Below, piece after piece: positions 1-1,950 of a stretch of 1,950 nt of DNA. A program made the position numbers. This stretch comes from Escherichia coli (GTDB taxonomy: Bacteria > Pseudomonadota > Gammaproteobacteria > Enterobacterales > Enterobacteriaceae). Positions within the stretch are counted from its first letter, which is position 1, and each line of letters starts with the position of its first letter. The stretch lies in assembly GCF_003334385.1 (NCBI RefSeq), contig NZ_QOWN01000106.1, one strand, 5' to 3'.

Positions 1-1950
1 GCTGCCGCGAAAGCAGGAATACTGCCGGAGGGTTTTTTCTGGACGGATGCGGAGAATAACGACGTCCCGATGACGGCTGGGGAGCTGATGGCACTCAGTG
101 AGGCGGCGGAGAAGGCGATGTTCACCAAAGGGATGGAAATTCATGTCAGACAGCGCACGATGAAAAAAGAGATTGAAGCGCTGGGTGATGCGGAAGCTAT
201 ACTGGCGTATAAGGTCGGCATGGCTGACAGGTGAAAAAAAGAGGGGCGCTCCAGCCCCTTGCTACAAAGCTATGGCTAAATAAAGAATACTCAGGTCGAG
301 GAAATGATCTGGCAATGATAATTAAAGGAGATGCAACGGCCTCCTTCACCCCTGTCAAAGATAAAAAACTGGGGAGTGCGTGCTCCCCGAGAGCATGATA
401 CTTGTGGTTGATAGTTATTTTTATCCGGCGACAAAGATATTGAGATGAGGTCGCGGATGCAATACAGAATTTTCGTATTGCATGGTAACTGCTGATTCCT
501 GAAACTGAAAGTCGTCATGAAACTGTAAGCGAAAAAACGGGGAGACGGCACGCTCCCCAAGGTCATACATGAGATAGTGGTGTTTTTATAGTCGAAAGAA
601 TAATTGCATAAAAAGAGTGTAAATTAAACATTCAGGGGATACAGAATTTTCGTAGGCTGAGGGATTGCTGAAAATAATTTAGTGCGTCCTTCAATGGTCA
701 TTCAATGGTCATCAGATTGTGCTGATGTAAACAGTTAAGCACAATTTGATTATTTGACTTTCTTCTTTTTGTGACTAACTTCACAATTAAAGATGTAACC
801 GTATACAAATTGTTGATGAATAAAGAGACAGCATAAGTGGCAGGCCAGTCGTAATGCGGATATCCCTTCGCGAACGTGATATCACCGACGTTATAGTAAG
901 GAAATTCCGAAAAACTTCATATTAAAATTCGGAATTTCTTCAGGAGTAAGCTCATGAGAGCGGCGAGACATCAGATTTTCTTTATATATCCGATGTTGAA
1001 CTGTTTTATTTGTATACAGATAATTTTATAGGGTATACCACATGAGCAAGAAATTTACAAAGACTATTCTTTCATCTGCTGTTGCCGGTCTGTTGTTGGT
1101 GAGTGGTGGGGTTGTTGCGGCAAATCCTAAGGACGTAAATATTGGGGGCGAGTACATCGTAAAATTTTACAATGATGGGGAAGGTGCCGAGATAGTAAAA
1201 GCAAAAGGAAAAAAAGAGGTTTTATTAGGTGCTATTAATACAACAACAGGAAGCATCATGACCTTTAATGAAAAGGAGGCTGCTAAAAGTAAAACGCAGG
1301 ATGATTTTAATTCTATTGTGTATCCTGTCTACTTACCTGAGTTAAAGCTGGAAAATATAAAATCCCTAAATGTCGATGATATAAAGAAAATACAAGAAAT
1401 AAAAAAGAATGTGTCTGAGGTTGTTACATCTGCCAACTCAGCTGAGTATTTATCTGCTATAAGAAGTGGCGGTAATACTGAGGCTTACTTAGCAATTAAC
1501 AAAACATCTCCAGCTTTATCAAAAGAGTACTCTCGCATTTCTGGGAATATCGAACAGCTGAATAAAGACACCACTTTTGCAATTGACGCTGACGGCAACA
1601 TTACTCTGGATGAGACAGTCGGTACAGGTGAGCGCTATGGTGTGAAGGATGTTGTGGCTGATCTTGTTGCTGACACGACTGTGTATGCCGAAGAAGATGG
1701 TTCACTGACGATGGATAACAGTGCTCCAGCAAGAAAGCGTGTTAATGAAGCACTGGTTGACCTGGACAAATCTGTTCGTGAGCGTACCACTGTTGGTGTG
1801 AGTTCTGACGGCACCCTGACCCGTGCAGAAGGTGCAAAGAACACCATTTCTGTTAACGATGGTCTGGTGGCCCTGTCTGGTCGTACTGACCGTATTGATG
1901 CAGCAGTTGGTGCCATTGATGGCCGTGTCACCCGTAACACGCAATCCATT

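What the first reader, a model, noticed from the sequence alone, without database searches (positions are those of the whole stretch)
234..560. Three hairpins within ~330 bp that all read as intrinsic terminators on the - strand only
All three hairpins (242-259, 371-388, 539-558) have the A-run on their left side on the + strand. This means the hairpin-plus-U-tract configuration exists only for leftward transcription, which is opposite to both flanking genes. They may insulate the upstream operon from antisense transcription arising in the AT-rich region, or they may be the 3' ends of short leftward transcripts. Three in a row is unusual.
Basis: seen in the sequence. Interest (0 to 1): 0.5.

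Follow-up and report, generated by a model that had tools for sequence, protein, structure and literature searches.

The report
Leftward terminators upstream of prophage eib
Three small hairpins between a prophage tail-fibre-assembly gene and an immunoglobulin-binding adhesin gene read as ordinary transcription stop signals for the opposite strand. The one next to the tail gene is a common boundary element, and the other two vary between alleles and can be lost.

Summary
Hairpins at 242-259, 371-388 and 538-559 each have a run of 6-7 A on their left, so hairpin plus U-tract exists only on the - strand. The local scan found 5 terminator-like hits, all on the - strand, against 0.5 +/- 0.8 in shuffles.

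The window is the end of a DUF4376 tail-fibre-assembly gene (tfa, stop at 232-234), an 807-bp spacer, and an eib adhesin gene (ATG 1042). This arrangement occurs in 27 of 5426 complete E. coli genomes and in a few phages.

- **Hairpin 1:** kept in every allele, even where loop and flanks have diverged. Unrelated tfa genes of the same family very often carry a similar reverse-facing terminator just after the stop codon.
- **Hairpins 2 and 3:** they end two diverged tandem copies of a non-coding unit that share an exact 16-nt box. Hairpin 3 is degenerate or deleted in several alleles, and hairpin 2 is weakened in one lineage. "Three in a row" is therefore specific to one allele.

Best reading: these are leftward intrinsic terminators that keep transcription out of the tail genes. 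Functional small RNAs are possible but unsupported: no Rfam match, no conserved promoter, no expression data. This is an ordinary, unannotated feature of low to moderate interest.

The parts
1..234 (+). 3' end of the prophage tail-fibre-assembly gene (DUF4376 family); stop codon TGA at 232-234
   Evidence: ORF 70..234. RefSeq annotation of the 99.5% identical locus names it a DUF4376 domain-containing protein or tail fiber assembly protein.
234..259 (-). Hairpin 1: stem-loop at 242-259 plus an A7 run at 234-240 (U7 on the - strand) that abuts the tfa stop codon. Leftward intrinsic terminator and boundary element.
   Evidence: Stem and A-run are kept in the diverged KY176/L028/L020 lineage, although loop and flanks differ. 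Analogous A-run plus hairpin follows many unrelated tfa genes.
323..348 (-). Fourth conserved hairpin (AAGGAG(G)...CCTCCTT). Weak T-rich tail on the - strand.
   Evidence: The loop differs between alleles while the stem is kept. In the window allele it folds better on the - strand (-9.5 against -6.1 kcal/mol) because of G-U pairs.
363..388 (-). Hairpin 2: stem-loop at 371-388 plus an A6 run at 363-368. Leftward intrinsic terminator at the end of unit 2.
   Evidence: Intact in most alleles. Weakened to -6 to -7 kcal/mol by a C->A change in the stem in KY176/L020/L028.
389..455 (-). Body of unit 2. Positions 389-450 are invariant in the nine aligned alleles.
   Evidence: Alignment A2. One G->A change in L028 becomes a G-U pair on the - strand RNA.
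456..572 (.). 117-bp segment (box-2 palindrome, spacer, hairpin 3). It is absent from P-EibA, 2013C-3033, KY176 and L020. The junction shows GAT microhomology.
462..477 (.). Box 2: ATACAGAATTTTCGTA, sitting inside the longer palindrome TGCAATAC...GTATTGCA (457-482)
   Evidence: Exact 16-mer repeat D3. There are 2 matches in the window against 0.03 expected.
532..559 (-). Hairpin 3: stem-loop at 538-559 plus an A6 run at 532-537. Leftward intrinsic terminator at the end of unit 3.
   Evidence: -12.5 kcal/mol in the window/PhiR5_2 allele, -10.1 in KY177, -2.7 in 2012EL/2018-166/PhiR5_1/L028, and deleted in four alleles.
560..669 (-). Body of unit 3, including box 3 (639-654). It is a diverged tandem copy of unit 2.
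   Evidence: The units align with score 53 against 19.9 +/- 3.5 in shuffles, mostly through box and hairpin.
676..705 (-). Best leftward sigma-70-like promoter candidate: TTGAAT-18-TAAATT, predicted start near 669
   Evidence: Top score on either strand in my own PWM scan. The -10 element TAAATT is kept in all alleles, while the -35 changes with the 11-bp duplication. This is a consensus match only.
1042..1950 (+). 5' part of the eib gene (YadA-like immunoglobulin-binding trimeric autotransporter)
   Evidence: The published eibG construct with 168 bp of upstream DNA is expressed (bioRxiv 10.64898/2025.12.25.695649).

Best explanation
The three hairpins are leftward-facing Rho-independent terminators in the non-coding spacer between a prophage tail-fibre-assembly gene and the eib adhesin gene.

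- **Hairpin 1.** Its U-tract ends exactly at the tfa stop codon. It is this locus's copy of a boundary terminator that follows DUF4376-type tfa genes in many E. coli prophages. It stops RNA polymerase arriving from the right (the accessory region or the host flank) before it can transcribe the tail genes antisense.
- **Hairpins 2 and 3.** They end two diverged tandem copies of a non-coding unit of about 115-140 nt: a 16-nt box, an AT-rich body and a terminator. They would catch short leftward transcripts that start in the AT-rich eib control region and would serve as back-up stops. The best candidate promoter for such transcripts is at 705->676.
- **Dispensability.** Hairpins 2 and 3 decay or are deleted in other alleles, so only hairpin 1 looks indispensable.

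Shown: the sequence features, the strand asymmetry and the conservation pattern. Inferred: termination in vivo, the promoter, and the source of leftward transcription.
For: - Canonical terminator anatomy on the - strand only, well above chance.
- The eibA gene has its own canonical forward terminator, a stem followed by T8. Forward stops therefore look normal where they are needed.
- Hairpin 1 keeps its stem and A-run where the loop and flanks have diverged by about 20%.
- Of 26 distinct sequences downstream of DUF4376 tfa genes, 11 have a reverse-only terminator, 3 a two-way one and 3 a forward-only one. Three more show an A-run plus hairpin by eye. The stems are unrelated in sequence.
- In one common locus type the reverse hairpin lies between tfa and a convergent leftward ORF, which is the conventional setting for such a terminator.
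- The spacer right of 550 is 31-39% G+C, and the top-scoring leftward promoter-like site lies there.
- No conserved ORF spans the units. The indel and frameshifting indels break all candidate ORFs.
Against: - There are no transcript data, so termination and the leftward promoter are predictions from consensus matches.
- All annotated genes for several kb to the right are on the + strand, so there is no obvious leftward gene for these terminators to serve.
- The stems are short (6-7 pairs, about -12 kcal/mol).
- The tfa survey counts sequences that are partly related, so the 11:3 ratio overstates the number of independent cases. About 8 stems are unrelated.
- Loss of hairpins 2 and 3 in some alleles shows that they are not required.
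Confidence: 0.5

Rival explanations
1. Units 2 and 3, and perhaps the stretch 352->235, are genes for trans-acting small RNAs. Each would be transcribed leftward from its own promoter and would end at its own terminator. The RNA products, not the act of termination, would be the function, for example regulation of eib or of host genes.
For: - The layout resembles a small-RNA gene: a 5' stem-loop, an AU-rich single-stranded stretch, then a terminator with 6-7 U.
- The units are a tandem pair sharing an exact 16-nt box.
- The body of unit 2 (389-450) is invariant in nine alleles, and the one change seen in L028 makes a G-U pair on the - strand.
- Promoter-like sites sit upstream of each terminator.
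- Prophage intergenic regions of pathogenic E. coli are known to hold Hfq-dependent small RNAs (bioRxiv 10.64898/2026.05.13.724894).
Against: - No Rfam family matches at E <= 1, including AgvB, AsxR, Esr41, STnc100 and DicF.
- The candidate promoters of units 1 and 2 are not conserved, and the -35 of unit 2 is removed by the 117-bp deletion.
- Terminator 3 is lost or deleted, and terminator 2 weakened, in many alleles.
- Pairing with the eib leader is no better than for shuffled sequences.
- The invariance of 389-450 may simply reflect mosaic recombination.
- The unit is found only in the tfa-eib context.
Confidence: 0.25
2. Hairpins 2 and 3 are decaying leftovers with no present function. They would be remnants of earlier module boundaries or of lost leftward cargo genes, carried along by recombination with the eib cassette. 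Only hairpin 1 would still be maintained.
For: - Hairpins 2 and 3 have the same format as terminators at the end of tfa genes elsewhere. One example is TAAAAAGAAGGGGAGCGGATGCTCCCC after another tfa.
- Both are being lost by point mutation and by deletion in different lineages.
- No leftward gene is present to use them.
Against: - No trace of tfa coding sequence precedes hairpins 2 or 3 (tblastn, all E > 0.1).
- There is no DNA similarity to other tfa downstream regions.
- The A-runs are kept even in the rearranged P-EibA allele, and 389-450 is invariant.
- The intact three-hairpin allele is the best match at >=95% identity in 22 of 27 carrier genomes.
Confidence: 0.15
3. The hairpins act on the + strand RNA. 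They would be 3'-end stabilisers or processing sites of the late (tail) transcript, and the A-runs would be incidental.
For: The + strand hairpins are slightly more stable (-13.6, -13.5 and -12.5 kcal/mol), owing to extra G-U pairs at the stem ends. Hairpin 1 lies directly after the stop codon of the last late gene.
Against: - A-runs on the left recur next to unrelated stems in many tfa loci, which points to selection on the - strand U-tract.
- Hairpin 323-348 folds better on the - strand.
- The + strand uses a normal terminator after eibA.
Confidence: 0.07
4. Chance: three GC-rich palindromes happen to lie next to A-runs.
For: The stems are short, and the 351-bp stretch scanned is small.
Against: There are 5 hits against 0.5 +/- 0.8 in shuffles, all on one strand. 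Hairpin 1 is conserved across diverged alleles.
Confidence: 0.02

Closest known systems
Rho-independent (intrinsic) terminators of E. coli
   Same: A GC-rich stem of 6-7 pairs, a loop of 3-8 nt and a U-tract of 6-7 starting 1-2 nt after the stem, at about -12 kcal/mol. All of this holds on the - strand.
   Different: They face away from both neighbouring genes, and no leftward gene is annotated nearby. Activity has not been measured.
Bidirectional intrinsic terminators between convergent genes
   Same: A hairpin placed at the end of a gene, with an A-run on its upstream side.
   Different: There is no T-run on the right side, so only the leftward direction has a U-tract. Some other tfa loci do have the two-way form, such as L055, L121 and L054.
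Tandem terminators at the ends of phage lambda operons (t'J sites of the late operon; recalled from memory, Luk and Szybalski 1983, not read here)
   Same: Several terminators in a row near the boundary between the tail-fibre genes and the accessory region of a temperate phage.
   Different: Those act on the rightward late transcript, whereas these face left. Lambda's own tfa belongs to a different family and has no such hairpin downstream.
Prophage-encoded Hfq-dependent small RNAs of pathogenic E. coli (PasA-D, AgvB, AsxR, Esr41, DicF) and tandem small-RNA pairs such as OmrA/B
   Same: Short intergenic units in prophages that end in an intrinsic terminator with a poly-U tail. Here there is a tandem diverged pair.
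   Different: No sequence or structure match to any Rfam family. The Pas genes lie near Q, lysis or capsid genes, not between tfa and eib. There is no expression evidence, and the terminators are not conserved.
Moron organisation of temperate phages (promoter, gene, terminator inserted between phage genes; from general knowledge, Hendrix and colleagues 2000)
   Same: eib has its own upstream control region and its own forward terminator. The hairpins lie at the junction between the phage late genes and this insert.
   Different: The three hairpins are not the moron's own terminator. They are upstream of it and point the other way.

Membership tests
Intrinsic (Rho-independent) terminator | GC-rich stem-loop (at least 5 pairs, loop of 3-8 nt) | tested here: met
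   Stems of 6, 6 and 7 pairs with 5 G-C pairs each, and loops of 6, 6 and 8 nt. Energies are -11.6 to -12.5 kcal/mol.
Intrinsic (Rho-independent) terminator | U-tract directly 3' of the stem on the transcribed strand | tested here: met
   On the - strand the tails are C+T7, AG+T6 and G+T6. On the + strand there is no T-run, and no + strand site is found in 1950 bases.
Intrinsic (Rho-independent) terminator | RNA 3' ends in the U-tract in vivo, or termination in a reporter | not testable with these tools
   No transcript data are available. No paper holds these sequences.
Intrinsic (Rho-independent) terminator | Conservation of stem and U-tract among relatives | tested here: inconclusive
   Hairpin 1 meets this in all alleles. 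Hairpin 2 is weakened in one lineage. Hairpin 3 is lost or deleted in about half of the alleles examined.
Bidirectional terminator | A-tract upstream and T-tract downstream of one hairpin | tested here: not met
   The right-hand flanks are TTGCTACAAA, GAGAGCATGA and AAGGTCATAC, with no T-run.
Hfq-type trans-acting small RNA gene | Own promoter at a conserved distance from the terminator | tested here: inconclusive
   Promoter-like sites exist (705->676, 462->434 and 315->287). Only the -10 element of the first is kept in all alleles.
Hfq-type trans-acting small RNA gene | Terminator hairpin with a long U tail, preceded by a single-stranded A/U-rich stretch | tested here: met
   The predicted folds of 480->360 and 656->528 show this layout.
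Hfq-type trans-acting small RNA gene | A detectable stable transcript, Hfq binding, and a conserved seed with targets | not testable with these tools
   No expression data. Pairing with the eib leader is no better than for shuffled sequences.
Known Rfam RNA families (including AgvB, AsxR, Esr41, STnc100, DicF) | Match to the family covariance model | tested here: not met
   cmscan of the whole window on both strands at E <= 1 gave 0 matches.

The most novel reading that the evidence does not exclude
The spacer would encode a pair of previously undescribed, tandemly duplicated leftward small RNAs. These are unit 3 (about 669->531) and unit 2 (about 480->364), which share a 16-nt box. They would be specific to eib-carrying prophages and would take part in the poorly understood control of Eib adhesin expression or of host genes. 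In the 117-bp deletion alleles they would be fused into a single RNA of about 190 nt.
Probability: 0.2. Interest if true: 0.45.

Novelty: new member of a known kind. Interest (0 to 1): 0.25.

Why it matters
If the hairpins work as predicted, they mark the precise right-hand edge of the late tail operon. They would show how a prophage shields its structural genes from antisense transcription that starts in an AT-rich, horizontally acquired virulence insert.

The survey suggests that a reverse-facing terminator right after the stop codon is a general feature of DUF4376 tail-fibre-assembly modules. That would be useful for annotating prophage module boundaries and for predicting where cargo genes are exchanged.

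The regulation of Eib adhesins is barely understood. Any RNA made from this spacer would be a new candidate player. None of this changes current concepts, and the elements are of a familiar kind.

Tried and rejected
- **Rfam.** Search of the whole window at E <= 1 found nothing. There are no tRNA or tmRNA genes.
- **Coding potential.** The - strand ORFs 291..566 and 421..570 and the + strand ORF 231..398 are broken by the 117-bp indel or by frameshifting indels in other alleles. They are annotated only as automatic 'hypothetical proteins' in some phage records.
- **Relics of tfa genes before hairpins 2 and 3.** tblastn with 21 Tfa proteins gave only E > 0.1. blastn against all tfa loci found nothing beyond the box.
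- **Homologues outside E. coli.**
  - The 20-mer scan of 100,044 species genomes gave four unrelated chance matches.
  - The 16-mer box scan of viral contigs gave true hits only in tfa-eib loci, plus chance hits.
- **Pairing of the unit RNAs with the eib leader.** RNAduplex energies were no better than for shuffled sequences (an earlier attempt timed out).
- **Phage lambda as a model.** Its tfa is not of this family and has no terminator-like site downstream.
- **The box as a known binding or recombination site.** By eye it does not convincingly fit LexA, CRP, ArgR, PurR, sigma-54, sigma-28 or invertase crossover sites. This rests on my recall of the consensus sequences, not on a test.
- **Literature.** Papers on Eib give no promoter, transcript or small-RNA data for this spacer. 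Sandt and Hill 2000 is not held. Sequence strings from the hairpins and the box occur in no held paper.

Full report
**What the window is.** The first 234 bases are the end of a + strand ORF that stops at TGA 232-234. RefSeq and phage records annotate it as a DUF4376 domain or tail-fibre-assembly protein (tfa) in the near-identical loci. From ATG 1042 runs a YadA-like gene, which in prophage P-EibA (AF151091) is the immunoglobulin-binding protein gene eibA. The finding lies in the 807-bp spacer between the two. The spacer occurs in 27 of 5426 complete E. coli genomes, at 71 places and often several per genome. It also occurs in eight phage records with a full-length match (PhiR5_x, PhiR12_x, P-EibA). 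It always lies between a tfa gene and an eib-type gene.

**Check of the observation.** The scan lists 259->242, 388->371 and 559->538 as terminator-like on the - strand. Their stems have 6-7 pairs, with 5 G-C pairs each. T-runs of 7, 6 and 6 start 1-2 nt after the stem. A fourth, weaker site lies at 348->323, and nothing is found on the + strand. The count is 5 against 1.4 +/- 1.3 in shuffles of the window, and 5 against 0.5 +/- 0.8 in shuffles of 225-575. The hairpins fold about equally well on either strand, at -11.6 to -13.6 kcal/mol. The asymmetry therefore lies in the A-runs at 234-240, 363-368 and 532-537. The A-run of hairpin 1 includes the last base of the tfa stop codon, so a leftward transcript would end exactly at the gene border.

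**Anatomy beyond the hairpins.** The exact 16-mer ATACAGAATTTTCGTA occurs twice, at 462-477 and 639-654. That is 2 matches against 0.03 expected.
- Read on the - strand, each copy is followed about 80 nt later by hairpin 2 or hairpin 3.
- The stretches 520->360 (unit 2 with its upstream flank) and 700->528 (unit 3 with its upstream flank) align with score 53 against 19.9 +/- 3.5 in shuffles. Most of that comes from the box and the hairpin; the bodies alone reach only p of about 0.07.
- I read hairpins 2 and 3 as the ends of an old local tandem duplication.
- The stretch ending at hairpin 1 is not related to them.
- No ORF survives comparison between alleles.

**Variation between alleles.** I aligned nine, and then seven, versions of the spacer and refolded each hairpin.
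- *Hairpin 1:* present in every allele. In the KY176/L028/L020 lineage the region 215-370 differs by about 20%, the tfa stop codon is different and the loop is different. The GGGGC/GCCCC stem and an A6 run remain (-12.6 kcal/mol).
- *Hairpin 323-348:* it behaves the same way, with the stem kept and the loop changed. In the window allele it is better on the - strand (-9.5 against -6.1).
- *Hairpin 2:* intact in most alleles, but a C->A change in the stem lowers it to -6 to -7 kcal/mol in KY176, L020 and L028.
- *Hairpin 3:* it varies most.
  - It is intact in the window/PhiR5_2 type.
  - It scores -10.1 in KY177.
  - It is essentially gone (-2.7) in 2012EL-2448, 2018-166, PhiR5_1 and L028.
  - It is removed by a 117-bp deletion (window 456-572, GAT microhomology) in P-EibA, 2013C-3033, KY176 and L020.
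- *Both states are common:* the intact allele is the best match at >=95% identity in 22 of 27 carrier genomes, and the degenerate one in 16 of 27. Single genomes can carry both in different prophages.

So "three in a row" describes one allele, and only hairpin 1 looks indispensable. By contrast, 389-450 (the body of unit 2) and 640-1041 are almost invariant. With so few independent sequences I cannot separate selection from mosaic recombination.

**A general feature of this tfa family.** I fetched 80 viral-contig loci that encode relatives of the Tfa protein and read the sequence after each stop codon. Under the same rules as the scan, the 26 distinct downstream sequences divide as follows:

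| Class | Count |
|---|---|
| Hairpin with the run on the left only (reverse-only) | 11 |
| Runs on both sides | 3 |
| Forward-only | 3 |
| Hairpin without runs | 1 |
| No hairpin by the rules | 8 |

Three of the last eight visibly have an A-run plus a hairpin that the rules miss. The stems are unrelated in sequence, for example GGGGGTGA/TCACCCCC, ATGGGGGA/TCCCCCAT, GGGGAGC/GCTCCCC and AACCCCGG/CCGGGGTT. There are roughly eight independent cases, so the 11:3 ratio overstates independence. Three contexts illustrate the pattern:
- In the commonest type (L067) the hairpin lies between tfa and a convergent leftward ORF. That is the conventional setting for such a terminator.
- Other tfa-eib-like loci without any homology to this spacer (L040, L088) also start their spacer with a reverse-facing terminator.
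- The eibA gene itself ends with a normal forward terminator, a stem plus T8.

Repeated appearance of A-runs beside unrelated stems argues that the - strand U-tract is what is selected. Hairpin 1 is then the local copy of a module-boundary terminator.

**Where leftward transcription could come from.** All annotated genes for several kb to the right are on the + strand, so there is no leftward gene to serve. The spacer right of 550 is 31-39% G+C. In my simple PWM scan the best promoter-like site in the whole window, on either strand, is leftward: TTGAAT-18-TAAATT at 705->676, with a start near 669, just upstream of unit 3. Its -10 element is kept in all alleles, while its -35 depends on an 11-bp tandem duplication present in some alleles only. 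Weaker sites at 462->434 and 315->287 precede hairpins 2 and 1 but are not conserved. These are consensus matches, not evidence of activity. A published eibG construct needs only 168 bp of upstream DNA for expression from a plasmid. The hairpin region is therefore not required for eib expression in that setting.

**Mechanism proposed.** RNA polymerase moving leftward meets up to three intrinsic terminators and is released before it reaches the tfa stop codon. It could have started at the candidate promoter, at spurious promoters in the AT-rich insert, or further right. Rightward late transcription is not stopped, because there is no U-tract on that strand. The short RNAs that result may be by-products or may have a function. 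I put 0.5 on the terminator or insulator reading, 0.25 on functional small RNAs, 0.15 on functionless relics for hairpins 2 and 3, 0.07 on a + strand role and 0.02 on chance.

**Small-RNA reading.**
- *In favour:*
  - The predicted folds look like small-RNA genes: a 5' stem-loop, an AU-rich linker and a terminator with 6-7 U.
  - The units form a tandem pair with a shared box.
  - 389-450 is invariant.
  - The single change in L028 gives a G-U pair on the - strand but an A-C mismatch on the + strand.
- *Against:*
  - No Rfam family matches at E <= 1. Known prophage small RNAs (Pas, AgvB, AsxR, Esr41, STnc100) sit in other phage regions.
  - The terminators and promoters are not conserved.
  - Pairing with the eib leader is no better than for shuffled sequences.
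  - The unit is never found outside the tfa-eib context.

**Comparison with known things and novelty.** The hairpins meet the sequence definition of intrinsic terminators on the - strand. They do not meet that of bidirectional terminators. They are unannotated in all records examined; AF151091 annotates only the stem-loops at window 901-938 and after eibA. I class them as new members of a known kind. The tfa-boundary pattern is a modest generalisation that I have not seen described, but I did not search the literature for it specifically. Interest is low to moderate.

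Noticed in passing
window 770-785: TGTGACTAACTTCACA has both CRP half-sites perfect (TGTGA-N6-TCACA). It is invariant in all aligned alleles and lies about 260 bp upstream of the eib ATG. A match with at most 1 mismatch is expected 0.10 times per window, and 17 of 200 shuffles had one. It could bear on the reported induction of Eib in static culture (PMC4352079).
   Followed up: partly
window 686-707: An 11-bp tandem duplication (GTCCTTCAATG / GTCATTCAATG) is present in the window, 2012EL-2448 and 2013C-3033 but occurs as a single copy in the other alleles. 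It creates the TTGAAT -35 element of the best leftward promoter candidate.
   Followed up: partly
window 901-938: A perfect 11-bp inverted repeat (GAAATTCCGAA ... TTCGGAATTTC) with a 16-nt loop. It is annotated as stem_loop in AF151091 and lies inside the 168 bp that suffice for eibG expression from a plasmid. Its function is unknown.
   Followed up: no
window 711-750: A 13-nt inverted repeat, 92% complementary (ATCAGATTGTGCT / AGCACAATTTGAT), with a 14-nt spacer. It is invariant in all alleles and may be an operator.
   Followed up: no
window 640-1041: This part of the spacer is almost invariant among alleles whose eib coding regions are only 34-57% identical at the protein level. Only the last 165 bp or so (878-1040) are recognisably shared, at about 71%, with more distant eib-like loci (phage GER2, L040).
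   Followed up: partly
window 456-572: A 117-bp insertion or deletion polymorphism with 3-nt (GAT) microhomology at the junction. It removes hairpin 3 and box 2 and fuses the body of unit 3 to the body of unit 2.
   Followed up: yes
window 497-529: Two 15-nt direct repeats 18 nt apart (TCCTGAAACTGAAAG / TCATGAAACTGTAAG) lie between box 2 and hairpin 3. This stretch differs strongly between the two main alleles.
   Followed up: no
L001 5121-5155 (P-EibA, downstream of eibA): eibA is followed by a canonical forward terminator (GACGGCAGGCA...TGCCTGCCG plus T8). This fits eib being a self-contained insert with its own stop signal.
   Followed up: yes
L125-L128 (genome-contig hits): The 20-mer GTGGTTGATAGTTATTTTTA from unit 2 occurs in four unrelated bacteria (Pseudidiomarina, a Bdellovibrionales MAG, a Cyclobacteriaceae MAG and Tenacibaculum). 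The flanks share nothing, so I take them as chance matches of an AT-rich word.
   Followed up: yes
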